From a virus, in IMG/VR virus record IMGVR_UViG_3300023179_000077, positions 13,054 through 77,053 of that record: a stretch of DNA of 64,000 nucleotides. One strand, written 5' to 3'. The translations under genes were made by a program, and so were the position numbers. This document shows positions 7,384 through 51,005 of the stretch, piece after piece. Under the pieces are notes generated by a model. It saw only the letters and a list, made by a program, of their open reading frames with translations, searched no databases and was not told the origin of the DNA. Position 1 is the first letter of the stretch. Each line of letters opens with the position of its first letter.

Positions 7384-9030
7384 ATGAACGTACAACAATT
7401 ACTCGAGTCATCTAACCAGTATAAAGTTATAATGGAAGATGCACAACGTTTGTCTGGTAAGTGGGCTAAATCCGGTCTTTTAGAAGGCATTAGCAACACT
7501 CAAGACAAAAACACAATGGCTATTCTCCTTGAGAACCAAGCCAAGCAATTAATCACTGAAGCTTCTGCTACAGGTGGTACTACCTCAATGTCTGGTGCTG
7601 GATATAATGCAGAAAACTGGGCTGGTGTAGCTTTGCCATTAGTTCGCCGCGTATTCGGTGAAATCGCTGCTAAAGAATTCGTTAGCGTACAACCAATGAA
7701 CTTACCTTCAGGTCTCGTATTCTATCTTGATTTCAAATACGGTACTGGTGTTAAGCCATTTACCAGCGGTGGTTCACTTTATGGTGCTAACGCTACTACA
7801 AACGTAACCGATATTGCTTCTCAATCACTTTATGGTGCTGGTAAGTTTGGTTACTCAATCAACCAATTCTCAGCTTCTATTGTTGCTGTAACCGGTTCAA
7901 CCACATGGGCTGACTTTAACTTAGATTCTACCTATTCAGCTTCTGCTGCTACTGGTTGGAAAAAGATTTCAGTTCCTCTCCCAGCTGCTGCTGATACAAA
8001 TGCTGTTAGATCATTTGTATTTACTTCTGGTTCTTCCGGAACATTCATCAGCGCTAATGACATTTTACAGCAATTTACAACTGTAGCTAATAGCACAGCT
8101 TCATTCATTGTAACTGGTTCATTAGTATCTGTTTCTAGCTCAACTCCAACAGTAACCTTGTTCTTCTCTGTAGCTCCTACTCCAGCAGCTCGTGGTGATT
8201 TCGAAGATCAAACAACAGGTGGCGGTGCTGGTAACGGCGGTAATGGTGGTTATCCTGGTGCTAACACTACTTCTGCTGCAATTGCTATCCCAGAAATCAA
8301 CGTTCAGTTGAAATCAGAAGCTATTGTTGCTAAAACTCGTAGGTTAAAAGCACAATGGACACCAGAATTCGCTCAGGATCTTAATGCTTATCATAGTGTT
8401 GATGCTGAAGCTGAATTAACTGGTATCTTATCACAGTATATTTCAATGGAAATCGACCTCGAAATCCTTGATATGTTAATTCAAAACGCTTTCACTACTG
8501 AATACTGGTCAGCAGTTAACAACCAAGGCGTAGGTGCTTCTGGTGTTACTAATGGTAACCTCGGTTACTACAACACCCAAGGTGGTTGGTTCCAAACCCT
8601 CGGCACTAAGCTCCAGAAAGTTTCTAACATAATCCATCAGTTAACTCTCCGCGGTGGCGCTAACTTCCTCGTAACTTCACCAACCGTAGCTACAATCCTC
8701 GAATCAATTCCTGGATTTGCTTCTGACGGTGATGGTGAAAAAATGGAATTCAACTTCGGTATTCAGAAAGTTGGTTCACTTAACAGCCGTTACAAGGTTT
8801 ACAAGAACCCATACATGACTGAGAACGTAATCCTCATGGGTTACAAAGGTGCTCAGTTCCTTGAGTGCGGTGCTGTATTTGCTCCATATGTGCCTTTAAT
8901 CATGACTCCACTTCTCTACGATCCTAACACCTTCACTCCACGTAAAGGTTTGATGACTCGTTACGCTAAGAAGATGATTAGACCGGACTATTATGGTCGT
9001 GTATATGTTGCTGGTTTAAATACTCTTTAA
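7384..9030 (+). CDS. Major capsid protein (T4 gp23-like)
   Basis: VQPMNLPSGLVFYL, AKTRRLKAQWTPEFAQDL, FAPYVPL and FTPRKGLMTRY motifs; probable maturation cut at ITE|A. Confidence 0.97.
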   Translation: MNVQQLLESSNQYKVIMEDAQRLSGKWAKSGLLEGISNTQDKNTMAILLENQAKQLITEASATGGTTSMSGAGYNAENWAGVALPLVRRVFGEIAAKEFVSVQPMNLPSGLVFYLDFKYGTGVKPFTSGGSLYGANATTNVTDIASQSLYGAGKFGYSINQFSASIVAVTGSTTWADFNLDSTYSASAATGWKKISVPLPAAADTNAVRSFVFTSGSSGTFISANDILQQFTTVANSTASFIVTGSLVSVSSSTPTVTLFFSVAPTPAARGDFEDQTTGGGAGNGGNGGYPGANTTSAAIAIPEINVQLKSEAIVAKTRRLKAQWTPEFAQDLNAYHSVDAEAELTGILSQYISMEIDLEILDMLIQNAFTTEYWSAVNNQGVGASGVTNGNLGYYNTQGGWFQTLGTKLQKVSNIIHQLTLRGGANFLVTSPTVATILESIPGFASDGDGEKMEFNFGIQKVGSLNSRYKVYKNPYMTENVILMGYKGAQFLECGAVFAPYVPLIMTPLLYDPNTFTPRKGLMTRYAKKMIRPDYYGRVYVAGLNTL

Positions 9031-9069
9031 TCTAGTATAACATAATAGCCCTGTAAGGCTTAAAAAAAC

Positions 9070-9100
9070 AAAAGGCTCGAGGTAATACTCGGGCCTTTTT
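9070..9100 (+). terminator. Intrinsic terminator after the capsid gene
   Basis: AAAAGGCTCGAG-GTAATA-CTCGGGCCTTTTT. Confidence 0.85.
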
Positions 9101-9116
9101 GTATATTTATACACGT

Positions 9117-9665
9117 ATGAAAACATGTAAAAAATGTGGTATTGAAAAACCACTAAATGAATATTGTAAACGTAAAGAAGAAAAAGATGGATTACATCGT
9201 TATTGTAAACCATGTATGAGACAACGTCTTAAAAATGAGTACAATAGGGATAAAGAAAAACATCTTAAACGTACTCGAAAATATCAAGAGGAAAATAGGG
9301 AATATTTTAGAAATAAATCTAATAATCACTACCACACCAAAAAAGACTACTATCGCGAATGGAATCGAACTAAATATTCTACTGATTTACTATTTCGTCT
9401 CCGCCATACTCTCAATTCTATCATAAACCATCACCTTAAAGAAGGTAAATCACAAAGCAGCATTGACTATCTAGGCTGCACAATACAAGAATACAAAGAG
9501 TATCTTGAACCACTATTCACACCAGAAATGAATTGGGAAAATTATGGAACTTATTGGGAAATAGACCACATTCATCCATTAGCTAAAGGTGGATCATTTC
9601 ATTATACCAACACTCAGCCACTTACTGTAGTTGAAAATAGAATAAAATCAGACATAATATTATGA
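9117..9665 (+). CDS. HNH/endonuclease VII-like homing endonuclease with N-terminal Zn ribbon
   Basis: CKKC...CKPC, LGCT...MNWENYG..WEIDHIHP...HYTNTQPL...N; ATG at 9117. Confidence 0.8.
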   Translation: MKTCKKCGIEKPLNEYCKRKEEKDGLHRYCKPCMRQRLKNEYNRDKEKHLKRTRKYQEENREYFRNKSNNHYHTKKDYYREWNRTKYSTDLLFRLRHTLNSIINHHLKEGKSQSSIDYLGCTIQEYKEYLEPLFTPEMNWENYGTYWEIDHIHPLAKGGSFHYTNTQPLTVVENRIKSDIIL

Positions 9666-10912: not shown

Positions 10913-12484
10913 ATGGCTATAAATCTTAAAGACTTATATGATAAATACTATGGGGATACTTCATACTTAACACCAGTTAAATGTAATACTCCATTTGAAT
11001 ATTATGATAACGATCCTGAATTTGTAAGAGATGCTAAAAGTGTTGCACGATTTGTAGCTCAACGCTTAGGTACTGGTTTAGGTCTTACTCAACTCAACAT
11101 TAGTGATTTAACCGTGTATGCTGCTTTTGAAGAAGCAGTTACTACATACGGTAATATGGTCTATCAATATAAAATTAGAGACCAATACTTAAGTATGGAA
11201 GGAGCAGAATCGTCTCCTTTTAATAACGCTACTGTTACTTATGTAAATAGTATAGATGTAAGTTCACCTGTTACTTGGTCTGGTGCTAGATTAGCTACTT
11301 TAACTGATATAGATAATAATCCAACTTACACTCAAGCAGTAAATGATGGAAGCATATATGTTATATCTGCTTCATTATCTAATTTTATATTACCTAATTT
11401 AGATTATGTTAAATCATTCACTTTAGCTACAGAATATGTAAGTGGATCTATTACTTATGATTTAAGTCAATACGTTTATAATAAATTAAATAAAGTAAGT
11501 GGTAGTTATCTTTATTTCTTTACTACTAGTCCTCAAATATCAAGTGGATCTGCTTTATTTGGAACCGGATCTATACCTACAGTTTATATTCAAGATGTAT
11601 TAGATCCTGAATTTAATAATAAATTAATTAGTGATACTTTAGCTACTTTAACTACTACTATAGCTGAAAACTATGCTAGTGAAGCAGGTATAGGTGGAAA
11701 CTATACAGTATATAGTGGTACTCTTCCAATGACAGCGGGCGTTCAAGATTATGATTTAAATACTTGGGCTGCTAACTCAGCATCATTAAATCCAGGTGAC
11801 AGAATAGAAATTAGAAGAGTATTCTATGAAGAACCCCCTGCTATTGTTCGTTACTTTGATCCATATGCCGGTACAGGTACTGGTATCCAATCATTACTTG
11901 AAACATTTGGATTTGGTCAGTTTTCTCCGGGTATTAACTTCTTATTAATGCCTATCTACTTTGATATACAAAAAATACAAGCGATTGAATTTAACGATCA
12001 AATAAGAAAAGCAGCTTATTCATTTAATTTAGTAAATAATAAATTAAAAATATTTCCTATACCTACTGAAAATAAAAATTTATTTTTTGAGTATGTAAAA
12101 GTAAGTGAAAAGTTCAATCCTATCAAAGACAACAGAAATAATGTTGTTACTGATGTAATGAATGTTCCTTATAGAAATCCAATATATTCTAGAATAAACA
12201 CTGTAGGTAGAACTTGGATATTTAAATATGCCTTAGCATTATGCCGTGAAATTGAAGCACATATTCGCTTAGAATATTCTACAGTTAACGTTCAAGGTGT
12301 AGGAGCATTACAAGGATCCGATTTAATTCAAGATGCTAGAACAGAAAAAGAACAATTGTTGACTGAATTAAAAGAAATGTTAAATGAAGTATCGCGTAAA
12401 GCACAATTAGAGCGTCAACAACAAGAAGCCCAATTTGCTCGTGATACTTTAACTCAAATACCATTACCAATTTATATATTCTAA
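10913..12484 (+). CDS. Neck/head-tail adaptor (gp13-like) with Ser/Thr-rich insertion
   Basis: Position after the head genes; WIFKYALAL...E...L..EL C-terminal pattern; ends PLPIYIF. Confidence 0.6.
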   Translation: MAINLKDLYDKYYGDTSYLTPVKCNTPFEYYDNDPEFVRDAKSVARFVAQRLGTGLGLTQLNISDLTVYAAFEEAVTTYGNMVYQYKIRDQYLSMEGAESSPFNNATVTYVNSIDVSSPVTWSGARLATLTDIDNNPTYTQAVNDGSIYVISASLSNFILPNLDYVKSFTLATEYVSGSITYDLSQYVYNKLNKVSGSYLYFFTTSPQISSGSALFGTGSIPTVYIQDVLDPEFNNKLISDTLATLTTTIAENYASEAGIGGNYTVYSGTLPMTAGVQDYDLNTWAANSASLNPGDRIEIRRVFYEEPPAIVRYFDPYAGTGTGIQSLLETFGFGQFSPGINFLLMPIYFDIQKIQAIEFNDQIRKAAYSFNLVNNKLKIFPIPTENKNLFFEYVKVSEKFNPIKDNRNNVVTDVMNVPYRNPIYSRINTVGRTWIFKYALALCREIEAHIRLEYSTVNVQGVGALQGSDLIQDARTEKEQLLTELKEMLNEVSRKAQLERQQQEAQFARDTLTQIPLPIYIF

Positions 12485-15029: not shown

Positions 15030-15030
15030 A

Positions 15031-15255
15031 ATGGCACGATTAAAATTAAAACAAGTATTATCTAATTTATCATATAATGCTACTACTAATCAATTAACTC
15101 TTAGTGGTAGTTCAGACCCATCATTTATAATCTCAGGCTCAGTTTATGTAGCATCAACACCAACAATAACAGGTTCTGTTACAATTCAAAACGTAGATAC
15201 ATTCGGTGATAGTGGCAGCTTCTATACGTTAGACCTAGGAAATAATTCATTTTAA
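15031..15255 (+). CDS. Small virion protein
   Basis: 74 aa with four SGS/TGS motifs. Confidence 0.5.
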   Translation: MARLKLKQVLSNLSYNATTNQLTLSGSSDPSFIISGSVYVASTPTITGSVTIQNVDTFGDSGSFYTLDLGNNSF

Positions 15256-15293: not shown

Positions 15294-18200
15294 ATGCCAA
15301 AGATTATTCCAAATTATACAACAATTCCTGGACAGGGATTTACTATTTTAGATTTAGATTTAGGAGAAATAGCACTTAACGTTAGTGATGGTAATCTATA
15401 TCTTAAAAAAGAAACAGCAGGAGTACCAAGTGTTGTTATACTAGCAGGTCCTGGAAATGTTGCTGTTAGTTCATCATATGCTTTAACATCATCATATGCT
15501 AATTATGCTGCTGTAGCATTAAATGCTACTAATTCTCTTAATACTTTATTTGGTATATTTTCACTTCATTCGTATTACTCTCAATTAGCAAGAACAGCAT
15601 CGTTTGCATATAAAGCAGATTATTCTGATTTTGCATTAAAGGCTTTAACAGCTACTAATGCTTCAACAGCATCTTTACCTATACGAGGTATAATAACAGC
15701 ATCAGCTGCTGGTTCTACAATTACATTTACTAAAGGCGATAGCAGTACTTTTAACGTTAGCGTAACAACAGCAACTGCTCAAACAGCATCATATGTTACT
15801 TCATCTAACGTTGATGGTCCTTATGGTAAAAATAGTATACTAACAGCATCATACGCTCTAACAGCATCATTACCGCTTCGAGGTTTAATAACAGCATCCG
15901 CTGTCGGCTCTACAATCACGTTTACTAAAGGTGATAGTAGTACTTTTAATGTTACTATAACAACAGCAACTGCCGAGACTGCATCATATGTATCTTCTTC
16001 TAATGTTGATGGTCCTTATGGAAAAAATAGTATATTAAGTGCGTCGTATGCTGTAACAGCATCTTATGTTTTAAATGCAATAAGCGCCTCGTATGCTCTT
16101 AGTGCCTCACAAGCATTTAGTTCATCATATGCGTTTAGTGCATCACAAGCAGTTAGCTCATCATACGCACTTAGTGCATCGTTTACTTCAACAGCAAGCT
16201 ATTCCCTATCATCATTATCAGCATCATATGCTAGTACTGCTTCTAATATAGAAGGAGGTGCTACAAATTATATTACACTATGGAGAACCAATACTGCTTT
16301 AACAAGCAGTGTAATGTATCAAAGTAGTAGTAATATTACTATAGGTGGTGGAGCTATTTTACCTTCAGCTAGGTTAGAAGTAAAAGGAGCAGGCTCTACA
16401 TCAGCTACTGCTGCTTTAAACGTTATAAATGCTTCATCAACAGATTTATTATACTTAAGAAATGATGGTTTTGTAGGTATAGGAACAGCATCTGCTGCTT
16501 CTACTGAAAATATGTTCATTAAAAAACAGTGGACTATATTTGATCAAGGAGTTGATCTTACAAATTATACTATAGTTGATATATCAAATACAACTAGTGT
16601 TTTAAGATTAGGAGTTGAAACTAATTCTGGAGGAGGTATAGCAACAAATTCTACAGCTTATGCTGGTATAATTGGTACTACAAAAAATATTCCATTACAG
16701 TTTATTACTAGCGGCAGTGTAAAAACTACTATAACATCAACAGGTAATTTTGGAATAGGTATTACATCACCGTTATATACTTTAGATGTATCAGGCAGTG
16801 CTCGTATTACTAGCTCAGTATTCTTACCAGGATTAATTAATACTAGTCAATCTCATCTTATAAGCTATAATTCAAGTTCAGGACAACTTTATTATTTAGG
16901 AACCGGTTCGTTTACAGCTAGTTGGGCTAATAATACTATTAGTGCTTCTAATGCACAAACAGCAAGTTATATTCTTAACGCTGTATCTGCATCGTTTGCT
17001 TCTACAGCTTCATACGTGTTAAATGCAGTCAGCGCATCATTTGCATCAACTGCTTCGTTATCTCAGAATGCATTAACAGCGTCATTTATAACAGCTTCTA
17101 ATGTTTGGGGCCCGTTTGGCTCAAACAGTATTATCAGTTCATCGTTTGCATCAACGGCTTCATATGTTCTTAACGCTGTGTCTGCATCATTTGCAGCAAC
17201 AGCATCATCCGCAGATAATTTTCTAGTTAGAGGCACACTTACTGCACAAACTATTATAGCACAAGTAATAACTTCATCAACTGACTTTGTTACTGGTTCA
17301 ACTCGTTTCGGTACTCAACTCACTAATACACATCAATTTACCGGCAGCGTAAGTATAACTGGTAGTTTAACTGTTACTGGAGCTGGAATTACAGGATCGC
17401 TGTTTGGAACAGCAAGTTGGGCAGTGAGCGCATCACAAGCACTTACAGCTTCATATGTGTTAAATGCTGTATCATCATCCTATGCACTAAGTGCATCACA
17501 AGCTCAAAATGCAACTACAGCATCATACGTGTTAAATGCTGTTTCAGCATCATTCGCTAGTACAGCATCGTTTGTTCAAAATGCTATATCTGCTTCGTTT
17601 GCTTCTACTGCTTCATATGTGTTAAATGCAGTTAGTGCATCATTTGCATCTACTGCTTCATTCGTTCAAAATGCAGTTAGTGCATCATTCGCATCAACAG
17701 CATCCTTAGCTCAAAATGCTTTAACAGCATCATTTGTAACAGCGTCTAATGTTTGGGGCCCATTCGGATCAAATAGTATTATTAGCTCATCGTTTGCTAG
17801 TACAGCATCCTTAGCTCAAAATGCAGTTAGTACTTCATTCGCCGCAACAGCATCATCCGCAGATAACTTTACAGTACGTGGTACACTTACTGCTCAAACA
17901 ATAGTAACTCAAGTTATAACTTCAAGTACTGATTTTGTAACTGGTTCATCTCGATTCGGTACATTATTAACAAATACACATCAATTTACAGGTAGTGTAA
18001 GTATAACAGGAAGTTTAAATGTAGTAGGAGCTGGAATTACAGGTTCATTGTTTGGAACATCATCGTGGGCTAACAATGCAATAAGTTCATCTTATGCATT
18101 ATCAGCATCACAAGCACAAAACGCAGTTAGTGCATCTTATGTATTAAACGCTGTAAGTGCTTCATTTGCTAGTACAGCATCCTATGTACTTAATGCAGTT

Positions 18201-20792
18201 AGTGCTTCATTTGCTAGTACAGCATCGTTCGTTCAGAATGCCGTTTCAGCATCGTTTGCTTCTACGGCTTCATTAGCTATAAATGCTCTAACAGCATCTT
18301 TTGTTACTGCTTCTAATATATTTGGCCCATTTGGTTCAAATAGTGTTATTAGTTCATCATTTGCTTCAACTGCTTCATTCGTCCAAAATGCCATTTCAGC
18401 ATCATTTGCTGCAACAGCATCTTCAGCTGATAATTTTACAGTACGTGGTACTCTTACTGCACAAACTATTGTGACACAAGTAATAACATCTTCAACGGAT
18501 TTTGTAACAGGTTCATCACGTTTTGGAACATTACTTAGTAATACACATCAATTCACGGGCAGTGTTTCAATTACAGGTTCGTTAAATGTTACTGGAGCCG
18601 GTATAACAGGATCATTATTTGGAACATCATCATGGGCGGTTAGTGCATCACAAGCAGTAACAGCTAGTTATGTACTCAATGCCGTATCTGCATCATTTGC
18701 TAGTACAGCATCGTTTGTTCAAAACGCAGTTAGTGCTTCGTTTGCATCAACTGCTTCATTCGTTCAAAACGCAGTTAGTGCATCATTTGCTAGTACAGCA
18801 TCATATATAACAGCATCTGGTGTATTCGGCCCATTCGGATCAAACAGTGTAATAAGCGCCTCACACGCAGTAACAGCAGCGTTTGCTGCTAATTCTAGCG
18901 GCGTGAGTGGCGGTGCTGCAAACTATATCACGATGTGGACTAGTGCTACAGCATTAAGCAGCAGCACAATATATCAAAGTACTGGTAATATTGGTATTGG
19001 TACTATAACACCTAATGCTAAACTTGATGTTAATGGCAATGCAATTATCACCGGTTCATTAACAGTAGCGCCAAACAGTAATATAGAATTTCAAGTTCAA
19101 ACTGCAGGTGTTAAAATAGGTAACGTAATTACTGATGCTCATACAATAACAGGTAGTGTAAATGTAAGTGGCAGTGTAACTGCAACTAACTTTACTGGTT
19201 CTTTATTTGGTACATCATCGTGGGCAGTAAATGCATTACAAGCATCAACAGCCAGTTATATACTTAATGCTATTTCAGCATCGTTTGCATCAACAGCCTC
19301 ATTTGTTCAGAACGCTGTTTCAGCATCATTTGCTAGTACAGCCTCATTCGTTCAAAACGCAGTTAGTGCTTCATTCGCTGCTATAGCATCATCTGCAGAT
19401 AACTTTGCTGTAAGAAATACATTAACTGCTACTACTATAGTAGTACAAACTATAACATCATCAATTGATTTCGTAACAGGTTCTAGTCGTTTTGGAACAT
19501 TACTTAGTAATACACACCAGTTTACTGGTTCAGTAAGTATGACGGGTAGTTTAACTGTTACTGGAGCTGGAATTACAGGATCATTGTTTGGTACATCATC
19601 GTGGGCAGTAAGTGCATCACAAGCATTAACAGCTAGTTATGTACTTAATGCTATTAGTGCTTCGTTTGTAGCAACCGCGTCATATATAACAGCATCAGGA
19701 GTATTTGGTCCATTTGGTTCAAACAGTGTTATTAGTGCTTCACACGCAGTAACAGCAGCGTTTGCTGCTAATTCTAGTGGTATAAGCGGTGGGGCTGCAA
19801 ACTATATTACAATGTGGACTGGGGCTACTACATTAAGCAGTAGTGTAATATATCAAAGTGCTGGTAATATAGGAATTAATACTATTTCTCCTAATGCTAA
19901 ACTTGACATTAATGGTAGTACTATTATTACAGGATCTTTAATTGTTAGTTCTTCTGCTGTAAGACTTACTGTTAGTGGTTCTCAAGCTTTATTTAATCTT
20001 ACTGGTACTACTCCTTCAATAGTAATATCAGGAAGTGGTTATACATTTGCTGCAAGAATTGGTTCAACATCTAATAATCAATATTCTTGGCTTACTAATA
20101 TATACTATGATGGAGCTAATTTCCAAAAAGATGATACTTCTCGTAGTGGTTGGAGAATGAATCAAGTAGCAGAAACTACTGATACTACTAGTTCAATGGA
20201 GTTTAATTATTTCCCTATTGGAACTACTATTTCTGTTCAACCTTTAGTAATAAAAAGAAATAGTTTATTAATAAATAACCAAATTACACCTGTTAATACG
20301 GGTTCTGTATCTTTTGTAAATTATGCTTTTGCAAACCAAACTGGATCTGGTTTTTATGGTAGTGGTTCTAATTTAGATAGTGTTAAACTAGCATTCAATA
20401 GATCTGATGAATTTGAATTCTCTTCAAGCGGCATGTTTAGAGCAGCCGATGATATAGTTGGTTTCTACTCATTCTCAGACCGCAATCTAAAATACGATGT
20501 AAGACAAGTATGTGGTAGTGTAGCGCTTGATCAAGTACAACAATTACAAGGTGTATATTATAAATGGGTAGGAGATCAAGGTAGTAGAGCAAATAGAGAA
20601 GAAATAGGTTTAATAGCACAAGATGTAGAAAAAATAATACCTCAACTTGTACGTGAACAAGAACGTTTAGGTCAAGGTACATTTAAAACAGTCGATTATG
20701 ATCATTTAACTGCGTTATTAATTGAAGCAATTAAAGAACAACAAAAACAAATCGACGAATTAAAATCTAGACTAGATGCCTTTACCAAGTAA
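15294..20792 (+). CDS. Giant tail fibre with C-terminal peptidase S74 intramolecular chaperone
   Basis: N-terminal LGEIALN..DG.LY anchor; SASFASTAS repeats; C-terminal SDRNLK...GLIAQDVE...VDY...LIEAIKEQQ. Confidence 0.88.
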   Translation: MPKIIPNYTTIPGQGFTILDLDLGEIALNVSDGNLYLKKETAGVPSVVILAGPGNVAVSSSYALTSSYANYAAVALNATNSLNTLFGIFSLHSYYSQLARTASFAYKADYSDFALKALTATNASTASLPIRGIITASAAGSTITFTKGDSSTFNVSVTTATAQTASYVTSSNVDGPYGKNSILTASYALTASLPLRGLITASAVGSTITFTKGDSSTFNVTITTATAETASYVSSSNVDGPYGKNSILSASYAVTASYVLNAISASYALSASQAFSSSYAFSASQAVSSSYALSASFTSTASYSLSSLSASYASTASNIEGGATNYITLWRTNTALTSSVMYQSSSNITIGGGAILPSARLEVKGAGSTSATAALNVINASSTDLLYLRNDGFVGIGTASAASTENMFIKKQWTIFDQGVDLTNYTIVDISNTTSVLRLGVETNSGGGIATNSTAYAGIIGTTKNIPLQFITSGSVKTTITSTGNFGIGITSPLYTLDVSGSARITSSVFLPGLINTSQSHLISYNSSSGQLYYLGTGSFTASWANNTISASNAQTASYILNAVSASFASTASYVLNAVSASFASTASLSQNALTASFITASNVWGPFGSNSIISSSFASTASYVLNAVSASFAATASSADNFLVRGTLTAQTIIAQVITSSTDFVTGSTRFGTQLTNTHQFTGSVSITGSLTVTGAGITGSLFGTASWAVSASQALTASYVLNAVSSSYALSASQAQNATTASYVLNAVSASFASTASFVQNAISASFASTASYVLNAVSASFASTASFVQNAVSASFASTASLAQNALTASFVTASNVWGPFGSNSIISSSFASTASLAQNAVSTSFAATASSADNFTVRGTLTAQTIVTQVITSSTDFVTGSSRFGTLLTNTHQFTGSVSITGSLNVVGAGITGSLFGTSSWANNAISSSYALSASQAQNAVSASYVLNAVSASFASTASYVLNAVSASFASTASFVQNAVSASFASTASLAINALTASFVTASNIFGPFGSNSVISSSFASTASFVQNAISASFAATASSADNFTVRGTLTAQTIVTQVITSSTDFVTGSSRFGTLLSNTHQFTGSVSITGSLNVTGAGITGSLFGTSSWAVSASQAVTASYVLNAVSASFASTASFVQNAVSASFASTASFVQNAVSASFASTASYITASGVFGPFGSNSVISASHAVTAAFAANSSGVSGGAANYITMWTSATALSSSTIYQSTGNIGIGTITPNAKLDVNGNAIITGSLTVAPNSNIEFQVQTAGVKIGNVITDAHTITGSVNVSGSVTATNFTGSLFGTSSWAVNALQASTASYILNAISASFASTASFVQNAVSASFASTASFVQNAVSASFAAIASSADNFAVRNTLTATTIVVQTITSSIDFVTGSSRFGTLLSNTHQFTGSVSMTGSLTVTGAGITGSLFGTSSWAVSASQALTASYVLNAISASFVATASYITASGVFGPFGSNSVISASHAVTAAFAANSSGISGGAANYITMWTGATTLSSSVIYQSAGNIGINTISPNAKLDINGSTIITGSLIVSSSAVRLTVSGSQALFNLTGTTPSIVISGSGYTFAARIGSTSNNQYSWLTNIYYDGANFQKDDTSRSGWRMNQVAETTDTTSSMEFNYFPIGTTISVQPLVIKRNSLLINNQITPVNTGSVSFVNYAFANQTGSGFYGSGSNLDSVKLAFNRSDEFEFSSSGMFRAADDIVGFYSFSDRNLKYDVRQVCGSVALDQVQQLQGVYYKWVGDQGSRANREEIGLIAQDVEKIIPQLVREQERLGQGTFKTVDYDHLTALLIEAIKEQQKQIDELKSRLDAFTK

Positions 20793-23700
20793 TGGACCAA
20801 TATCGTTTGGAGATATAAATGAAGAAGCTCATCTAACAAGAAATACAGCTAATACTATATTAGCAGGTGGAAGTACTCCCCAAGTCGGTTCATTAGTAAA
20901 GTTATATGAAGCTACTGTTAATCAAAGTGCACCTCACGCGTTATCTGAGTTTAGAGGAGTATATTATGATGCTGTTAGTACTACTTTAGAAGTTAAGTAT
21001 GAAACAAACTATTTTTACGCTAATATATATGATTATATAAATTCAACAACAATAACAATATCTGCTGCTTCGCTAAATGTAATTGGTTATGATGATGGCT
21101 CCTGCTCATCTCTTTCAGGAGAATCAGATACAAGTTCAAATGCTTTAGTAATAAATGGTGGTTCATTAAATGCTAATCAACCTGGTAATTATGGAATGAC
21201 TTGTAATACAACTTATTATAAATTTTCTGGTAATTTAGTAATAAACGGGACTAGTAGATATGATGGAGAACAATTCTATATAGGATCAACCTATGTTACT
21301 CTATCATTTCCGCAGTCTTGTACTCCCTATTTCTGTTAATATATTTATTGCTGCCTATATAGGCCTTAGAACACCATAGATATGGCTCAACAAATACTTA
21401 AGCTACGTCGCAGTAGCATACCCGGGAAAGTTCCTAGTACTTCTTCTTTAGATTATGGAGAAATAGCGCTTAACACGTATGACGGTATAGCATACATGAA
21501 GCGATCTGGCTCTAATGGAGATGAAATAATTGCTATAGGCGTTGGAACATCAGGTAGCTTTACTGGTTCGTTTTTTGGTACTTCAAGTTGGGCCTACAAT
21601 GCAATATCTGCTGCTTACGCAGCAACCGCATCATCAGCTGATAATTTTACTGTTAGAGGTACACTTACCGCACAAACAATAGTAGTACAAGTTATTACTT
21701 CATCACAAGAATTAATAACTGGTTCTCTTATTGTTAATGGTCCTTTAACTGTTAATGGTGGAATAACAGGTTCATTACAAGGTACATCAAGTTGGGCTAA
21801 TAATGCTGTACAAGCAATAAATGCTGCTACTGCCTCTAATATATTAGGTGGTACTGCAACATATATACCTTTCTTTAAAACTAATACTACATTAGGCAAT
21901 AGCACAATGTATCAGATTAGTAATAGTTTTAGCACAACAAGCATTGCTATTAATGAAACTAATATCACTTCAGCTAATCCTGAAGCATTATATGTGTTTC
22001 AGACACATCCAACATCAATAAATGTATTAACAGGTAAAGGTAACTTAAATAACTATTTACAAAATAATATACAAAACACCAATCAAGGAGTTAGTGCTTC
22101 ATCTGATGTAGTTGCCACTGCAAATAACGGTAATGAAGATACCAACTACATTGATATGGGTATTAATAGCCAAAACTATAGTGCTGGTTTTATTGGTGAA
22201 GCTAATGATGCTTATTTATATTCAATAGCAAATAATTTACATATTGGTAATGCTAATGATAATGGTACTCATGTTGGTTTCTTTGTTGGAGGAACTGATG
22301 TAGAAGCATATAATAAATTACAATTAAGTCCCAACAACCAGCATAAAATGTCTGGTTCATTAGATATAAGCGGTAGTTTAACTATTAATAATGGTATTAC
22401 TGGATCTTTATTTGGAACTGCGAGTTGGGCTATAAATGCTTTAACAGCTTCCTATGCTGCAAACGTACCTGCAACAGCATCATATGCATTACAAGCATTA
22501 AGTGCATCATTTGCATCAACAGCTTCCTATGCTGCAAACGTACCTGCAACAGCATCATATGCATTACAAGCATTAAGTGCATCAAACGCATTAACAGCAT
22601 CTTATGCTTTAAATGCTCAAGGATCAGGATTCCCATATACTGGATCTGCAATAATAACTGGTAGTTTAATAGTAACTGGTTCTGTAAATGCAAGTTTAGG
22701 CTTTACTGGATCGTTATTTGGCACTGCATCATGGGCTGTTAGTGCATCACAAGCATTAACTGCTAGTTATGTGTTAAATGCAGTATCTGCTTCGTTTGCT
22801 ACATCAGCATCTAGAGCAGTAACAGCATCACTTGCTACAACAGCATCATATGTACTAAATGCTGTTAGTGCATCGTTTGCTACCACTGCTAGCTATGTAC
22901 TTAACGCTGTTAGTGCATCGTTCGCTACTACATCTTCATATGTACTAAATGCTATTAGTGCATCGTTTGCTTCTACTGCTTCATCTGTCAACCAGCTTAA
23001 CCAAGCAGTAGTAATATCAGGATCATTAACAGTAACTGGAAGTTCAGGTACAACACTACTTGTTTCAAACGCTGACACTTTAACGTTTACTGGCTCTATA
23101 TTCACAAGCGGTTCTATTGTATCAACAGGTAGTTTAAGTATAACTAGTATAACTAGTTCATTATTTGGAACAGCATCATGGGCAAATAATGCTATATCAG
23201 CATCATATGCATTATCTGCTTCGCAAGCACAAAATGCTGTAACTGCCTCTTATATACTCAATGCTGTTAGTGCCTCATTCGCTGCTACAGCATCATCAGC
23301 AGACAACTTTACAGTTAGAAATACACTTACTGCTCAAACTATAGTAGTACAAACCATCACTTCATCAGTTGATTTTGTTACTGGTTCTACTCGTTTTGGT
23401 ACTTTACTATCAAATACACATCAATTTACTGGATCAGTAAGTATAACAGGTAGTTTAAATGTAGTTGGAGCTGGAATAACAAGTTCATTATTTGGAACTG
23501 CTAGTTGGGCTAATAATGCTATAAGTTCATCATATGCTGTAAGTGCATCACAAGCTCAAAATGCTGTAACAGCATCTTACGCATTAACAGCTTCTTATGC
23601 TTCTAACGTACCTGCTACTTCATCATATGCTTTACAAGCATTAAGTGCATCGTATGCCAATAATGCAGTAACAGCATCTTATGTATTAAATACAGTTAGT

Positions 23701-36337: not shown

Positions 36338-38056
36338 ATGGCAGAAAAAATCATTTCGCCTGGTGTGTTTCAAAACGAAACTGACCAGTCTCTAGTGCAG
36401 CGGGGTATTCAAGGAACAGCAACTGCACTTGTTGGCCCTACAGTATTAGGCCAGCCCTTTGTTCCTACTTATGTTACTTCATATAGTGAATATGTAGCTA
36501 AATTTGGTGAATCATTTAAAAGCGGTAGCTACTACTATGAATATTTTACATCATTAGCTGCTAAAGATTTCTTTCAAAACGGCGGTCAAACATTACTTGT
36601 AACTAGAATTGTTAGTGGTTCTGCTGGTCTTGGTACTTATTCACAAGCTACAGTTCCTGGAGTAGTTGATGCTTCTTCATTTGTAATTGAAACATTAGCT
36701 TGGGGTGATATCATGAATAATACTTCTAGTATATCAAGTGGTGCTTTAGCAAGCGGCAGTAACACTAACGTTCGCTGGGAAGTAACAAATGTAAGTACCG
36801 GTAGTGGTATATTTACTTTAGCTGTTCGCGCTGGTAATGATAATACAGCTCAACCTAATTATTTAGAAACATGGGCTAACTTATCATTAGACCCAGCATT
36901 ACCTAACTTTATTTCTCGCGTTATAGGTGATATTAAGCCTGTATTCACAATTGATAGTGATGGTAATTATATAGTTGATACTACAGGTTCATATAGCAAT
37001 GCTTCAAGATACATACGTGTTAAATCAGTAACTACACCTCAAGTAGATTCTATTGATAATAACGGTAACTATAAAGCAACTCAATATAGTGGTTCATTAC
37101 CTGCATTAGGAAGTGGTTCTTATGGTGGTTCATTTGCAGGAGGTGTAGCTGCAACTACTACTGCTCAATTAATGAATGAAACTATTACAACAAGTAACAT
37201 TCAAGGATTTTCAGCTAACGACTATATTACAGCATTCCGTATCTTAAATAACTCAGATGCTTATCAATTCAATGTATTGTTAGCTCCTGGTGTTGGTTTA
37301 AGTAATAGTGCGGTTTCAACTATGATTTCAACTGTTGAAGGTCGTGGTGATTCTATTGCTGTTGTAGATGCTGGTGTTTATGGTACTTCAATTGCATCCG
37401 CAAACGCAGCTGCTGCTGGCCAATCAAGTAATTATGCTGCTGCTTACTATCCTTGGGTTCAATTATACAGTTCAGCTTTAGGTAAATCTGTATGGACTCC
37501 TCCATCAACAATAGTAGGTGGTGTTTATGCCTTTAATGATCAAGTTGCTGCTAGTTGGTTTGCTCCTGCAGGTTTAAACCGCGGTGGTGTTCCTTCAGTA
37601 TTACGTGCTGAAAAGAGATTATCTCAAGCAGATCGCGATTCATTATACTCAGCTAATGTTAACCCACTTGCTACATTCCCTGGTGAAGGTGTTGTAGTAT
37701 ATGGTCAGAAAACATTACAGAAAAAACAAACCGCCCTCGATCGTGTAAATGTTCGTCGTTTATTAATTGCATTAAAAGATTATATTGGTCAAGTATCAAA
37801 CGGCTTAGTATTCGAACAAAATACTAATGTTACTCGTAACCGTTTCTTAGCTCAAGTAAATCCATATCTCGAATCAGTAGTACAACGTCAAGGTTTATAT
37901 GCTTATAAGGTAGTAATGGATGATTCCAACAATACACCTGATGTAATAGACCGCAACCAATTAGTAGGTCAGATCTATATCCAACCAACTAAGACCGCTG
38001 AATTTATTATATTGAATTTCAATATTCAACCAACTGGCGCTACATTCCCTGCATAA
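36338..38056 (+). CDS. Tail sheath protein
   Basis: SPGV...E.D, WFAPAGLNRG, GQKTL and RVNVRRLL motifs. Confidence 0.97.
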   Translation: MAEKIISPGVFQNETDQSLVQRGIQGTATALVGPTVLGQPFVPTYVTSYSEYVAKFGESFKSGSYYYEYFTSLAAKDFFQNGGQTLLVTRIVSGSAGLGTYSQATVPGVVDASSFVIETLAWGDIMNNTSSISSGALASGSNTNVRWEVTNVSTGSGIFTLAVRAGNDNTAQPNYLETWANLSLDPALPNFISRVIGDIKPVFTIDSDGNYIVDTTGSYSNASRYIRVKSVTTPQVDSIDNNGNYKATQYSGSLPALGSGSYGGSFAGGVAATTTAQLMNETITTSNIQGFSANDYITAFRILNNSDAYQFNVLLAPGVGLSNSAVSTMISTVEGRGDSIAVVDAGVYGTSIASANAAAAGQSSNYAAAYYPWVQLYSSALGKSVWTPPSTIVGGVYAFNDQVAASWFAPAGLNRGGVPSVLRAEKRLSQADRDSLYSANVNPLATFPGEGVVVYGQKTLQKKQTALDRVNVRRLLIALKDYIGQVSNGLVFEQNTNVTRNRFLAQVNPYLESVVQRQGLYAYKVVMDDSNNTPDVIDRNQLVGQIYIQPTKTAEFIILNFNIQPTGATFPA

Positions 38057-48340: not shown

Positions 48341-48364
48341 TATAAAATAATATTTTATATAACT

Positions 48365-48917: not shown

Positions 48918-48937
48918 AACTATAAAGGTTATGATAT

Positions 48938-50233
48938 ATGTTTTATATTATAGAGCGCTCAGATCAATTGTTTTCTCAATCGTTTAACGATTGTTTCGTT
49001 AGATTTATTTCTAAAAACGATAATTATCATCCGTCACTCACGTCACTAAGTCTAATATACGTTAGACCGCTTGATGGAAAGAAAGGATACATTTTGTGTT
49101 TAGATCACAATGAATCGTTTAGTATACCTCAAACTGAAATTATTAATTGGCTACTTAATAATACAGGTAAACTGTGGGTATTGAACAAAAAAGAAGCACT
49201 ACATTGGGTATATCCACTAGCTGATAAATTATACGATGCTCATCTACTCGAATTTATTGACTTAACTGAAATATTAGGAAATAATTGTATTAATCATTAT
49301 TATAGAAATAATATTAATTTACCTAATATTAATTGCTTAATACCAATCAGTAAACACTATGAAGAATGTGAAAAAATATTTCAAGCAACACTACCTATAA
49401 TACAAAAATACACACCCAGTAATACACAATTCCAATTTCAAAATTTTAATACAGTAAACGTATTCTATAATATAGAAAAAAACGGCATAAAAGTAGATAA
49501 AAACTGCTTTATTGACTGTTATGGCGATGATTTAAAATATCCCGAGTTTAGTTTATTTAAGGGAAGAATATATTCTTCTTATAATTTAAATACTACTACG
49601 TCTCGTCCGTCAAACACATATAACACTATTAATTTCGCAGCACTGAATAAAACAAACGGAGAACGTTTATGTTATAAACCAAATAACGATTCATTTATAG
49701 AGATAGACATTCAGGGCTATCATCCACGCTTAATAGGTGAATTAGTTGGTTTTGAATTTCCTAAAGATAAAAACACATATGATTACTTAGGTGAATTACT
49801 TAATGTATCACAGCAGGAAGCTAAAGAATTAACGTTTAAGCAGTTATATGGTGGTGTTTGGAGTGAATATCGTGATAAACCATTCTTTAAAGACGTAATA
49901 AAATACATTGATAATTTATGGAATACATACCAATATAATGGTTACTACGAAACTAAAAATAAAATATTTATACGTGACAAAACAATGACAATTAATAAAT
50001 TATTTAATTATGTAATTCAAAGTTATGAAACATCAACTAATGTTCAGTTACTTGAATTAATTTTAAATCATTTAAAAGATAAAAAAACAAAACTAGTACT
50101 ATACACGTATGATGCTTTCTTATTTGATTATAACAAAGAAGATATTAATTTAATTCAAGAAATAATAAATATACTAAAATACCCAGTAAATATCAAACAA
50201 GGCAAAACATATCACAGTTTAACCAAAATCTAA
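48938..50233 (+). CDS. Short divergent family A DNA polymerase
   Basis: TTTSRPS; motif A EIDIQGYHPRL; motif B AKELTFKQLYG; motif C YTYDAFLFD. Confidence 0.8.
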   Translation: MFYIIERSDQLFSQSFNDCFVRFISKNDNYHPSLTSLSLIYVRPLDGKKGYILCLDHNESFSIPQTEIINWLLNNTGKLWVLNKKEALHWVYPLADKLYDAHLLEFIDLTEILGNNCINHYYRNNINLPNINCLIPISKHYEECEKIFQATLPIIQKYTPSNTQFQFQNFNTVNVFYNIEKNGIKVDKNCFIDCYGDDLKYPEFSLFKGRIYSSYNLNTTTSRPSNTYNTINFAALNKTNGERLCYKPNNDSFIEIDIQGYHPRLIGELVGFEFPKDKNTYDYLGELLNVSQQEAKELTFKQLYGGVWSEYRDKPFFKDVIKYIDNLWNTYQYNGYYETKNKIFIRDKTMTINKLFNYVIQSYETSTNVQLLELILNHLKDKKTKLVLYTYDAFLFDYNKEDINLIQEIINILKYPVNIKQGKTYHSLTKI

Positions 50234-50239
50234 ATATTT

Positions 50240-50662
50240 ATGACAGAACATTATAATTTATTTGATCAATTGAATAAACTTTTCTGTACATTCACTTTAC
50301 CGGACGAACTAGAATCTACTATTAATAATATTAACCGCCGCTATGTTATATTATATAATAAAATATTCATACTCGAATCGCCTCAAAGTAACGAGTTAAT
50401 ATGCACTTATAACATAGACACCGGCAACGTTGCCGACAGCCCATTACCAAATACTATTCTAGTACATCGTAAAAAAGAATCAAACACACTCTACACTATC
50501 AATGCTTTAAATGCATTGATTAGACAACTTAATGAAGGAAGGCTAGATAAAAATTATATGGTTAATTGGTTAGACTATAGAAACTGTATATTATTGAATA
50601 ATGGCCCTGAATTACGTCGTTTAGATACAGCTATTTATAAAATTATAGACTTAGGTAAATAA
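50240..50662 (+). CDS. Hypothetical protein
   Basis: 140-aa ORF containing HRKKESNTLYTINALN. Confidence 0.6.
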   Translation: MTEHYNLFDQLNKLFCTFTLPDELESTINNINRRYVILYNKIFILESPQSNELICTYNIDTGNVADSPLPNTILVHRKKESNTLYTINALNALIRQLNEGRLDKNYMVNWLDYRNCILLNNGPELRRLDTAIYKIIDLGK

Positions 50663-50663
50663 A

Positions 50664-51005
50664 ATGGCTACATACACATCAAATCAATTATACGGCTCTG
50701 GTTCAATCGGAGAAAATTTATCAGGATTAAAAACATTTACGTTTTATAATGCTGATGCTTCAACTGGTTATTTTACTTTAGAGACTATAAGAAATGCTGA
50801 TGGATTTTACAATAGTGGTTCTAAAACTAACGCAGTAGGAACATGGGTTGTATCATCATCTATGGGATTTGTTTCATCATCTCATGTAGCTTCAGCTGTT
50901 ATTTCTCCAGGCACATCATCGCTTACATTTACACCAACAGTAGCTGTTACAGGTTCGACTTATTACTTAAGAGGAGCAGGGAATTTTACCTTGATCATAT
51001 CTTAA
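50664..51005 (+). CDS. Putative virion surface protein in the replication block
   Basis: 113 aa, Ser/Thr/Gly rich, with six [ST][GS]S motifs. Confidence 0.5.
   Translation: MATYTSNQLYGSGSIGENLSGLKTFTFYNADASTGYFTLETIRNADGFYNSGSKTNAVGTWVVSSSMGFVSSSHVASAVISPGTSSLTFTPTVAVTGSTYYLRGAGNFTLIIS

What the first reader, a model, noticed from the sequence alone, without database searches (positions are those of the whole stretch)
7384..51005. Virion-wide [S/T]-[G/A/S]-S motif: candidate glycosylation/modification sequon
Seen: TGS/SGS/SAS/TAS/SSS saturates the three fibres and also clusters in non-homologous virion proteins. Capsid insertion region: FSAS, VTGS, YSAS, TSGS, STAS, VTGS, VSSS. Neck insertion: ISAS, VSGS twice, SSGS, GTGS. 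N-terminal half of the sheath: KSGS, VSGS, ASGS, STGS, TTGS, YSGS, GSGS, but scarce in its conserved C-terminal domain. Also the 74-aa, 134-aa and 113-aa small proteins. It is sparse in portal, protease and replication enzymes. Inference: convergence on one tripeptide in exposed regions suggests an enzyme-recognised sequon, for example a phage glycan shield, distinct from the Bacteroidota D-[S/T]-[A/I/L/V/M/T] O-glycosylation motif.
Basis: partly seen in the sequence, partly recalled or inferred. Interest (0 to 1): 0.8.

Follow-up and report, generated by a model that had tools for sequence, protein, structure and literature searches.

The report
Serine tripeptide tag on phage surface
The outward-facing parts of this aquatic T4-like phage's head, neck, sheath and fibre proteins carry the short pattern Ser/Thr-Gly/Ala-Ser far more often than chance and keep it under strong selection; it may be where the phage attaches sugars to its own particle, but no sugar has been seen and a purely structural role is almost as likely.

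Summary
The window is 64 kb of a 77-kb fragment (about 46% complete) of a T4-like myophage. Its nearest isolate is Flavobacterium phage immuto.

[ST][GAS]S exceeds composition-preserving local shuffles in the three fibres (344 observed, about 105 expected) and in six unrelated non-fibre virion proteins (36 versus about 14). It is at expectation elsewhere (7 versus 7.5).

Refinements:
- In non-fibre proteins only [ST]-G-S is enriched (SGS 19 versus 4.3).
- SGS is the most over-represented of all tripeptides there.
- The third residue is Ser, not Thr.
- The full motif is hydrophobic-[ST]-G-S-hydrophobic (9 versus 0.9).
- The fibres' SAS/TAS copies come from 15-residue tandem repeats.

In 120 relatives the third-position Ser is kept at 98% (sheath) and 83% (capsid). 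Other Ser in the same regions are kept at 67% and 45%. T4 and cyanophage S-SSM4 show no excess.

No glycosyltransferase lies in the 90 kb recovered for this phage. All five complete relatives carry a conserved soluble GT4-GT4-x-GT2 core with variable sugar genes.

Glycosylation is plausible (about 0.4) but unproven. A structural beta-arc motif is nearly as likely. Earlier notes of this scan describe the same motif on other phage DNA.

The parts
7384..9030 (+). Major capsid protein (gp23 family, 548 aa). Seven motif sites, all at residues 163-253 (nt 7870-8142), inside the insertion region (residues about 120-300, nt 7741-8283).
   Evidence: Pfam Gp23 E 5.8e-76. 7 sites versus 2.5 expected. Six of seven sites keep the motif class in 120 relatives. 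96% of 493 sites in 80 relatives' capsid proteins fall at residues 120-300 and only 6 in the conserved core.
10913..12484 (+). Neck/adaptor protein (523 aa) with six motif sites at residues 152-291 (nt 11366-11785).
   Evidence: PHROG head-tail adaptor Ad2, weak. 6 versus 1.2 expected, p=0.001. Neck homologues of relatives are 3.1-5.4 times enriched. A lineage-specific insertion in G002 adds about ten new sites.
15031..15255 (+). 74-aa protein directly upstream of the first fibre gene; four [ST]GS sites.
   Evidence: 4 versus 1.1 expected. Homologue in G001 (69% identity), also upstream of a fibre gene, has 4 versus 0.9.
15294..20792 (+). Fibre 1 (1832 aa) with a C-terminal S74 intramolecular chaperone domain. 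It holds arrays of the 15-residue repeat SASFASTASYVLNAV alternating with TGS-rich modules.
   Evidence: 139 versus 39 expected. Peptidase_S74 E 2.5e-14. Spacings 6 and 9, periodicity 15.
21382..30903 (+). Fibre 2 (3173 aa), a paralogue of fibres 1 and 3.
   Evidence: 176 versus 46 expected. blastp to fibre 1 E 3e-104.
31151..33718 (+). Fibre 3 (855 aa) with GNVGIGTTSPxxKLxV modules.
   Evidence: 29 versus 10.5 expected. PHROG tail fibre families. Matches PDB 8OND, Bdellovibrio Bd2133 fibre, E 3.6e-8.
33746..34150 (+). 134-aa protein after fibre 3; five sites.
   Evidence: 5 versus 1.4 expected; site contexts.
36338..38056 (+). Tail sheath (572 aa). Eight sites at residues 62-261 (nt 36521-37120). 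None in the conserved C-terminal domains.
   Evidence: Pfam Phage_sheath_1 and 1C at residues 293-563. 8 versus 3.1 expected. Motif class kept in 112-120 of 120 relatives at every site, and third-position Ser kept at 98.4%.
50664..51005 (+). 113-aa protein after the baseplate genes; six sites.
   Evidence: 6 versus 1.9 expected. Homologue in G001 at 65% identity.

Best explanation
Hydrophobic-[Ser/Thr]-[Gly, or Ala/Ser]-Ser-hydrophobic is a recognition tag on outward-facing beta-rich parts of the virion proteins. The proteins concerned are the capsid insertion region, the neck insertion, the outer sheath domains, the fibres and three small proteins.

Proposed mechanism (inferred, not shown): soluble phage-encoded glycosyltransferases O-glycosylate the tag in the cytoplasm before or during assembly, giving the particle a sugar coat. 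The candidate enzymes are the GT4-GT4-small protein-GT2 core that every complete relative carries next to variable sugar-nucleotide genes.

In the fibres the Ala version of the tag was multiplied passively, because it sits twice in a 15-residue structural repeat.

Shown here: the enrichment, its dependence on residue order, its restriction to exposed virion parts, the selection on it, its restriction to one clade, and the enzymes in relatives.

Inferred: that the enzymes act on these serines, and that this phage has them in its unsequenced half.
For: 1. The excess survives local composition shuffles and depends on residue order. SGS is the top tripeptide of all in non-fibre virion proteins.
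2. At least six regions carry it without detectable homology.
3. It is absent from portal, scaffold, protease, tube, tape measure and all enzymes. In the capsid protein 96% of sites in 80 relatives lie in the insertion region.
4. Third-position Ser is kept at 98.4% (sheath) and 83% (capsid), against 67% and 45% for other Ser in the same regions. Ser-to-Thr change there is 0.3-2.9%, against 11-13% for other Ser. The middle residue swaps among G, A and S at homologous sites, which a Gly-only tight turn would not allow.
5. Sites turn over while density holds. Capsid proteins at 50-60% identity have 5.9 sites, only 3.2 at the window's positions. Lineage-specific insertions (G002 neck, Mel-JY01 and immuto sheath) arrive full of new sites.
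6. The excess is not generic to T4-type virions: T4 39 versus 44 expected, S-SSM4 27 versus 28.6. It is present in G001, G002, Microcystis phage Mel-JY01 (sheath 11 versus 3.6, neck 5 versus 1.0) and 82 IMG/VR capsid proteins.
7. The GT core is conserved at 48-60% identity between immuto and G001/G002. Among isolates, GTB1 homologues occur only in this capsid clade apart from one weak Tetrasphaera phage hit, across three host phyla.
8. The sugar islands have no membrane or export proteins, and no glycosylated nucleoside is reported for immuto DNA.
9. The best solved-structure match of both GT4 proteins is chlorovirus glycosyltransferase B736L.
Against: - No modified residue has been observed anywhere.
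- No glycosyltransferase lies in the 77-kb record or the 13.3-kb extension.
- The hydrophobic flanks fit a beta-strand-arc-strand structural element.
- The immuto capsid protein is not enriched (3 versus 1.8) although immuto has the enzymes.
- RM378 and LR756508 have distant GTB1 homologues but no excess in the capsid protein.
- Non-virion phage proteins do not clearly avoid the motif: G002 7 versus 14, p=0.06; G001 9 versus 9.7.
- The GT core has no late-promoter-like box directly upstream.
- GT4 and GT2 matches are generic and say nothing about the acceptor.
- The relatives are phylogenetically linked, so the conservation counts are not independent events.
Confidence: 0.42

Rival explanations
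1. The motif is purely structural. Hydrophobic-[ST]-G-S-hydrophobic is a strand-arc-strand (beta-arc or bulge) building block used by this clade's fibre modules and its beta-rich decoration domains. The small middle residue and the Ser hydroxyl are needed for packing or hydrogen bonding, and nothing is attached. The conserved glycosyltransferases do something else, for example modify a host envelope precursor or a small molecule.
For: - Hydrophobic residues flank the motif on both sides: 9 versus 0.9 and 60 versus 2.0.
- In the low-confidence capsid model three sites sit at strand ends: VTGS 169-172, FTSGS 212-217, FIVTGS 241-246.
- About half the capsid sites are positionally conserved down to 50% identity, and one (FIV-TGS) down to RM378 at 38%.
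- The homologous Bdellovibrio fibre module 8OND has V-AGT and I-TGT at matching places, so the Gly is part of the fold.
- Strict residue conservation is what a structural role predicts.
Against: - Homologous or positionally equivalent outer domains of T4 and S-SSM4 fold without the motif.
- G/A/S exchange at the same column argues against a conformational need for Gly.
- Thr, a better beta-former, is excluded at position 3, whereas the Bdellovibrio homologue uses Thr there.
- The motif recurs in at least six regions with no detectable common fold.
- New insertions acquire it at new places.
Confidence: 0.35
2. The motif is a recognition tag for something other than sugar: another modification of Ser (phosphorylation, acylation, a cross-link), or a docking site for a decoration protein or assembly chaperone that acts on many virion proteins.
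For: The same evidence of convergence, Ser-specificity and selection applies. None of it specifies the chemistry. The small conserved protein inside the GT core (130-152 aa, no family match) has no assigned role.
Against: No kinase, acyltransferase acting on proteins or decoration protein was identified in the 77 kb. The only clade-specific enzymes found that could supply a trans-acting factor are glycosyltransferases.
Confidence: 0.1
3. The excess is a by-product of Ser/Thr/Gly-rich composition, low complexity or tandem duplication, with no function of its own.
For: The motif-bearing regions are Ser/Thr/Gly-rich. In the fibres roughly half the copies ([ST]AS, 173 of 344) sit in 15-residue tandem repeats that multiply by duplication.
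Against: - Shuffling within 10-residue blocks keeps the local composition and still gives 14 expected versus 36 observed.
- Permuted motifs are at expectation.
- The non-fibre proteins have no internal repeats or mutual similarity.
- The sites are far better conserved than neighbouring Ser, Thr and Gly.
Confidence: 0.03

Closest known systems
Virion O-glycosylation of mycobacteriophages (Che8, Corndog, Myrna) by phage-encoded glycosyltransferases (Freeman et al. 2023, Cell Host Microbe; known to me from memory and from citing papers such as PMC11256854; the paper is not held)
   Same: Phage-encoded soluble glycosyltransferases are proposed to decorate capsid and tail proteins in the cytoplasm. 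The GT genes are conserved within a phage lineage.
   Different: In the mycobacteriophages the sugars were demonstrated. As I recall, the acceptors are Ser/Thr-rich C-terminal extensions of the capsid and tail-tube subunits, and the GT genes lie beside the structural genes. Here nothing is demonstrated. The candidate sites are internal, defined by a short motif and spread over at least nine proteins. The tube has none. In relatives the GT genes lie 17-30 kb beyond the homologue of the window's last gene, far outside the structural module.
Bacterial autotransporter heptosyltransferases (TibC/TibA, Aah/AIDA-I)
   Same: A soluble cytoplasmic enzyme hyper-glycosylates many Ser residues in a repetitive beta-helical surface protein, recognising a strand-short loop-strand element rather than a long sequence. 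This is the closest mechanistic analogue for a hydrophobic-[ST]-G-S-hydrophobic tag.
   Different: No member of that enzyme family was sought or found here. The relatives' enzymes are generic GT4 and GT2. The substrates here are many unrelated proteins, not one adhesin.
Chlorovirus capsid glycosylation by virus-encoded cytoplasmic glycosyltransferases; PDB 3OY2/3OY7 (NY-2A B736L)
   Same: A virus builds glycans on its own capsid protein with its own soluble enzymes. B736L is the best solved-structure match of both conserved GT4 proteins (E 1.7e-6 and 1.4e-3).
   Different: The chlorovirus glycans are N-linked at atypical Asn sites, and N-x-[ST] is not enriched here. The sequence match is weak and confined to the nucleotide-sugar-binding half. 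The role of B736L itself is not established.
Serine-rich repeat adhesin glycosylation by GtfA/GtfB (streptococci, staphylococci)
   Same: Two adjacent GT-B genes of about 490 and 440 aa, and an acceptor made of S-A-S-type repeats, glycosylated in the cytoplasm. This resembles the fibres' SAS/TAS arrays and the GT4 pair.
   Different: The second phage protein keeps an E-x7-E motif, whereas GtfB, as I recall, is a non-catalytic partner. No DUF1975 domain was detected, and GtfA/B are not among the structure matches.
General O-glycosylation of Bacteroidota, motif D-[ST]-[AILVMT]
   Same: The likely host phylum, and O-linkage to Ser/Thr at a three-residue motif.
   Different: That motif is not enriched (26 versus 22.6 and 10 versus 16.7). 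That system acts in the periplasm on exported proteins, whereas virions assemble in the cytoplasm (established knowledge).
Bdellovibrio mosaic adhesive trimer fibres (PDB 8OND, Bd2133)
   Same: These share the GNVGIGTxxPxxKLxV-x-G fibre module with fibre 3, so the fibre scaffold is a known kind.
   Different: At the aligned motif places Bd2133 has AGT and TGT, not [ST]GS. The 15-residue SAS/TAS repeats have no solved relative.

Membership tests
Phage-encoded virion glycosylation (mycobacteriophage type) | Glycosyltransferase genes in the phage genome | tested here: inconclusive
   None found in G000 (77 kb, 46% complete), in the 13.3-kb extension L124 or in the 97-kb record G005. Present in all five complete relatives.
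Phage-encoded virion glycosylation (mycobacteriophage type) | Glycans shown on capsid or tail proteins | not testable with these tools
   Needs mass spectrometry or glycan staining of virions.
Phage-encoded virion glycosylation (mycobacteriophage type) | Acceptor is a Ser/Thr-rich C-terminal extension of the capsid and tube subunits (feature recalled from memory) | tested here: not met
   The capsid C-terminus has no such tail and all sites lie at residues 163-253. The tube (38105-38590) has no site.
Bacteroidota general O-glycosylation | Enrichment or use of D-[ST]-[AILVMT] | tested here: not met
   26 versus 22.6 (non-fibre) and 10 versus 16.7 (fibres).
N-glycosylation at N-x-[ST] (HMW1C type or chlorovirus-like) | Enrichment of N-x-[ST] in the surface proteins | tested here: not met
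   99 versus 93 (non-fibre) and 92 versus 118 (fibres).
GtfA/GtfB serine-rich-repeat glycosylation | GtfA with a DUF1975 insertion plus a non-catalytic GtfB partner | tested here: not met
   Pfam finds only weak Glycos_transf_1. The second protein keeps E-x7-E. GtfA/B are not among the PDB matches.
Autotransporter heptosyltransferase (BAHT) system | TibC/Aah-family enzyme | not tested
   No specific search for that family was made. The Pfam and NCBIfam scans of the relatives' island proteins did not report it.
Gly-dependent tight beta-turn (type I'/II') | Gly required at the turn position, with Asn/Asp/Ser/Thr interchangeable after it | tested here: not met
   At homologous columns G is replaced by A or S (capsid site 170: TGS 53, TSS 28, TAS 25). 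Position 3 is Ser at 98% and almost never Asn, Asp or Thr.
Pentadecad (15-residue) coiled-coil stalk, for the fibres' SAS/TAS arrays | 15-residue periodicity with hydrophobic a-d-e-h-l positions | tested here: met
   Spacings 6+9 and autocorrelation 0.46 at lag 15. A8, V11, L12, V15 and F4 fit a-d-e-h-l (my reading of the repeat).
Pentadecad (15-residue) coiled-coil stalk, for the fibres' SAS/TAS arrays | Alpha-helical structure | tested here: inconclusive
   The AlphaFold2 monomer model of one module has pLDDT 42 and no secondary structure in the repeats. No solved relative exists.

The most novel reading that the evidence does not exclude
A widespread clade of aquatic T4-like phages that infect Bacteroidota and Cyanobacteria writes a sequence-defined O-glycan code on its whole outer surface. 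A conserved soluble GT4-GT4-GT2 module glycosylates Ser in hydrophobic-[ST]-[G/A]-S-hydrophobic tags on capsid, neck, sheath and fibres. Fast-changing sugar genes downstream vary the glycan. This would be the first short sequon for cytoplasmic protein O-glycosylation of a virus particle.
Probability: 0.4. Interest if true: 0.8.

Novelty: new variant of a known kind. Interest (0 to 1): 0.6.

Why it matters
Virion glycosylation in phages has been shown only in a few actinobacteriophages. It matters there for antibody recognition and particle stability. A simple tag that predicts where an abundant group of freshwater and marine phages coats itself with sugar would do three things:
- make glycan shields readable from sequence;
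- explain the large glycan islands without export genes that recur in aquatic phage genomes;
- give a testable link between those islands and host range, particle stability or grazing resistance.

A cultured relative (immuto on Flavobacterium sp. LMO8) makes the question directly testable.

If the motif turns out to be structural, it is still a strongly selected, clade-specific building block of unknown fold that current structure prediction does not capture.

Tried and rejected
- **DNA-level cause.** Codons at motif sites are diverse, so I rejected it.
- **Hidden homology between motif-bearing regions.** blastp finds none and hhalign gives probability below 6% for all 36 pairs, so I rejected it.
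- **Structure mapping.** The AlphaFold2 capsid model from 39 close homologues has mean pLDDT 39.8, with only the insertion region reaching 53-76. The fibre-module model from 16 paralogous modules has pLDDT 42 and no secondary structure. Neither is fit for fold search or exposure mapping.
- **Solved relatives of the motif-rich parts.** PDB matches cover only the motif-free cores (capsid 304-528, sheath 362-570). The 15-residue repeats have no match.
- **Avoidance of the motif in non-virion proteins of relatives.** G002 has 7 versus 14 (p=0.06) and G001 has 9 versus 9.7. This is inconclusive.
- **Late-promoter-like ATATTTAT box before the GT core.** It is absent there. One box lies inside the G002 island at 134778. 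This is uninformative.
- **Reaching this phage's own glycan island.**
  - An exact-match scan found a 21.7-kb contig extending 13.3 kb past the window, and a 97-kb IMG/VR record.
  - Both stop 5-7 kb short of where G001 and G002 have the GT core.
- **DNA glycosylation as the role of the GTs.** Two papers on glycosylated phage DNA do not mention this clade. No glycosylated nucleoside is reported for immuto DNA.
- **Literature.** I found nothing on virion glycosylation in immuto, Mel-JY01 or RM378. Freeman et al. 2023 is not held.

Full report
**What the window is**

All genes lie on the + strand. They run in this order: portal, prohead protease, scaffold, gp23-type major capsid protein, PhoH, neck, three giant fibres, sheath, tube, tape measure, baseplate, then gp32, UvsX, a 5'-3' exonuclease, a DnaB-type helicase, thioredoxin and ribonucleotide reductase.

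The window is bases 13054-77053 of a 77,053-base IMG/VR record that CheckV rates 46% complete. The nearest isolate is Flavobacterium phage vB_FspM_immuto (capsid protein 58% identical). Next come Microcystis phage Mel-JY01 (49%), an uncultured 484-kb phage LR756508 (49%) and Rhodothermus phage RM378 (38%). Metagenomes hold thousands of closer relatives.

Yes. I counted [ST][GAS]S in all 56 ORFs and compared the counts with shuffles.

| Protein set | Observed | Expected | Shuffle |
|---|---|---|---|
| Fibre 15294-20792 | 139 | 39 | whole protein |
| Fibre 21382-30903 | 176 | 46 | whole protein |
| Fibre 31151-33718 | 29 | 10.5 | whole protein |
| Capsid protein | 7 | 2.5 | whole protein |
| Neck | 6 | 1.2 | whole protein |
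| Sheath | 8 | 3.1 | whole protein |
| 74-aa protein | 4 | 1.1 | whole protein |
| 134-aa protein | 5 | 1.4 | whole protein |
| 113-aa protein | 6 | 1.9 | whole protein |
| Six non-fibre proteins together | 36 | 13-14 (p<0.002) | 10-, 20-, 40-residue blocks |
| All non-fibre ORFs in 7384-51005 | 47 | 26 | local blocks |
| ORFs outside 7384-51005 | 7 | 7.5 | local blocks |

- The other four permutations of the three residue classes are at expectation. Only S[GAS][ST], which overlaps the motif, is also high.
- Codons at the sites are diverse, so the signal is at the protein level.
- An unbiased scan of all tripeptides in the non-fibre virion proteins ranks SGS first (19 versus 4.4), followed by GSL and GSY.

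**Refinements**

- In non-fibre proteins only SGS (4.4-fold) and TGS (2.5-fold) are enriched. SAS, TAS, SSS and TSS are not.
- The third residue must be Ser. SGT is 3 versus 4.4 and TGT is 5 versus 4.5. In the fibres there are 110 [ST]GS against 11 [ST]GT.
- Hydrophobic residues flank the motif. [VILFY][ST]GS[LIVYF] occurs 9 times versus 0.9 expected in non-fibre proteins, 60 versus 2.0 in fibres, and never outside the region.
- In the fibres [ST]AS (173 copies) sits twice in each 15-residue unit SASFASTASYVLNAV. Spacings of 6 and 9 dominate, and the hydrophobicity autocorrelation peaks at 15 and 30. That part of the excess is therefore multiplied by tandem duplication.
- The three fibres are paralogues.
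- The repeat fits a pentadecad a-d-e-h-l pattern (my reading). I could not confirm a helix, because the fold prediction failed and no solved relative exists.
- Fibre 3 shares its GNVGIGT...KLxV module with the Bdellovibrio fibre Bd2133, PDB 8OND.

**Are the motif-bearing regions related?**

Not detectably. blastp finds nothing between them. Profile-profile comparison was run on nine regions: the capsid insertion, sheath N-terminal part, neck insertion, five small proteins and a fibre module. It gives probabilities below 6% for all 36 pairs.

**Selection**

In 120 relatives (77-100% identical) the motif class is kept at 112-120 of 120 sequences at each of the eight sheath sites. It is kept at 100-120 of 120 at six of the seven capsid sites.

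| Measure | Sheath | Capsid |
|---|---|---|
| Third-position Ser retained | 98.4% | 83% |
| Other Ser in the same region retained | 67% | 45% |
| Third-position Ser changed to Thr | 0.3% | 2.9% |
| Other Ser changed to Thr | 11% | 13% |

The first position toggles between Ser and Thr. The middle one toggles among Gly, Ala and Ser at the same column; at capsid site 170 the counts are TGS 53, TSS 28 and TAS 25. It also argues against a conformational need for Gly. The sequences are related, so these counts are not independent events.

**Clade distribution**

The excess is not a general property of T4-type virions.
- 28 T4 structural proteins give 39 versus 44 expected.
- A 41-kb structural region of cyanophage S-SSM4 gives 27 versus 28.6.

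The excess is present in:
- the complete relatives G001 and G002 (capsid, sheath, neck, fibres and a second fibre-like cluster);
- Mel-JY01 (sheath 11 versus 3.6, neck 5 versus 1.0, capsid 5 versus 2.2);
- 82 IMG/VR capsid proteins of 50-100% identity (2.2-2.5-fold) and 15 neck proteins (3.1-5.4-fold).

Of 493 capsid sites in 80 relatives, 96% lie in the insertion region and six in the conserved core. Capsid proteins at 50-60% identity keep the density (5.9 sites), but only 3.2 of those sites are at the window's positions. Lineage-specific insertions in the G002 neck and in the Mel-JY01 and immuto sheaths carry fresh sites.

Exceptions are the immuto capsid protein (3 versus 1.8), the RM378 capsid protein and the LR756508 capsid protein.

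**Glycosyltransferases**

None lies in the 77-kb record. I extended the sequence by exact match into a 21.7-kb contig that overlaps the window's end and runs 13.3 kb further, and into a 97-kb IMG/VR record. Both end 5-7 kb short of the place where G001 and G002 have their GT genes, and the 97-kb record has no GT1 match.

All five complete relatives have GT2 and GT1 matches. They share a core in the same order: GT4 of about 485 aa, GT4 of about 436 aa, a protein of 130-152 aa with no family match, and a GT2 of about 207 aa.
- The core is 41-60% identical between immuto and G001/G002 (48-60% for the three enzymes), about as conserved as the capsid protein.
- Variable sugar genes follow. In immuto these are a DegT aminotransferase, a PglD-like acetyltransferase, an epimerase, a methyltransferase and further GTs. 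In G002 they are a dTDP-glucose dehydratase, a nucleotidyltransferase and a B12/radical-SAM enzyme.
- By a crude hydropathy test, 62 island proteins in three phages include only one with a single hydrophobic segment. So there is no flippase, polymerase or initiating transferase.
- Among 50,697 phage records the first GT4 has homologues only in the capsid clade (immuto, Mel-JY01, LR756508, RM378), plus a weak hit in a Tetrasphaera phage. The hosts span three phyla.
- For immuto DNA, a preprint (10.1101/2023.04.13.536721) reports dA, dC and one other canonical nucleoside, with dG replaced by fdPreQ1. It mentions no glycosylated nucleoside, so DNA is an unlikely target there.
- Both GT4 proteins match best, though weakly, the chlorovirus glycosyltransferase B736L.
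- The small GT2's best NCBIfam hit is the SunS peptide S-glycosyltransferase family, far below its cut-off.

None of this identifies the acceptor.

**Weighing the readings**

The convergence on one ordered, Ser-specific tag points to a trans-acting reader of the motif. Several results support this: the tag is confined to exposed parts of unrelated virion proteins, it turns over while its density holds, and it is absent from T4 and S-SSM4 outer domains. The only clade-specific candidates found for such a reader are soluble glycosyltransferases without a known target.

Against this:
- nothing shows a modification;
- the hydrophobic flanks and the partial positional conservation (one site back to RM378) fit a strand-arc-strand structural element;
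- the low-confidence capsid model puts three sites at strand ends;
- non-virion proteins do not clearly avoid the motif;
- the immuto capsid protein lacks the excess.

I put the sequon reading at about 0.42, the purely structural reading at 0.35, another modification or docking role at 0.1, and composition or duplication alone at 0.03. The last holds only for the multiplication of [ST]AS in fibre repeats. The two main readings are not exclusive: a structural arc could itself be what an enzyme recognises, as in the autotransporter heptosyltransferases.

**Relation to what is known**

Phage-encoded virion glycosylation is established for some mycobacteriophages (from memory; the paper is not held). 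Virus-encoded capsid glycosylation is established for chloroviruses. A short, virion-wide O-glycosylation tag in T4-like aquatic phages would be a new variant of that kind.

The Bacteroidota D-[ST]-[AILVMT] motif and N-x-[ST] are not enriched.

Earlier notes of this scan describe the same motif and the same GT pair on other phage genomes. They are unverified AI notes. I re-tested two of their claims here: islands without export genes (confirmed), and excess travelling with the GT pair (partly confirmed, with RM378 and LR756508 as exceptions).

Noticed in passing
window 51925-52671, 56236-56916, 59121-59708, 61335-62000, 62562-63176: Five paralogous GIY-YIG/NUMOD homing-endonuclease-like genes are scattered among the replication genes (blastp E 1e-10 to 1e-34 between them). 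Four of them have the late-promoter-like ATATTTAT box 13-34 nt upstream.
   Followed up: partly
L112 (relative G001, record positions 45144-60078): Three giant proteins (2011, 1374 and 1084 aa) are about 70-80% Gly/Ser/Thr, with long collagen-like (G-[ST]-[ST])n arrays. One ends in the same S74-chaperone-type C-terminus as the window's fibre 1. They lie between the replication genes and the glycan island.
   Followed up: partly
window end (64000) and L124 1-13330, L126: Three independent assemblies of this phage population stop within about 14 kb after the window's end, 5-7 kb short of where relatives have the GT core. This may reflect a population-level hypervariable island that breaks assemblies.
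   Followed up: partly
window, upstream of about 25 genes (e.g. 544, 2472, 10913, 15294, 36338, 39721): An ATATTTAT box lies 20-50 nt upstream of many structural genes. In relative G002 there are 42 copies on the coding strand against 10 on the other, and 30 of 198 genes have one within 70 nt upstream.
   Followed up: partly
relative G002, record positions 60985-64433 (L104): Two capsid-protein paralogues lie side by side (75% and 72% identical to the window's capsid protein), presumably the major and the vertex protein. Both carry 7 motif sites. The window has only one such gene.
   Followed up: no
window 8200-8280 (capsid residues about 273-300): A Gly/Asn-rich low-complexity stretch (TTGGGAGNGGNGGYPGA) lies at the end of the capsid insertion region. 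It is variable or absent in relatives, including immuto.
   Followed up: no
L002 3170-4504 (G000, upstream of the window): A 444-aa FAD/NAD-type pyridine nucleotide-disulphide oxidoreductase lies near a DUF2201 metallopeptidase/VWA protein and an AAA ATPase, just before the terminase. Its role is unknown.
   Followed up: no
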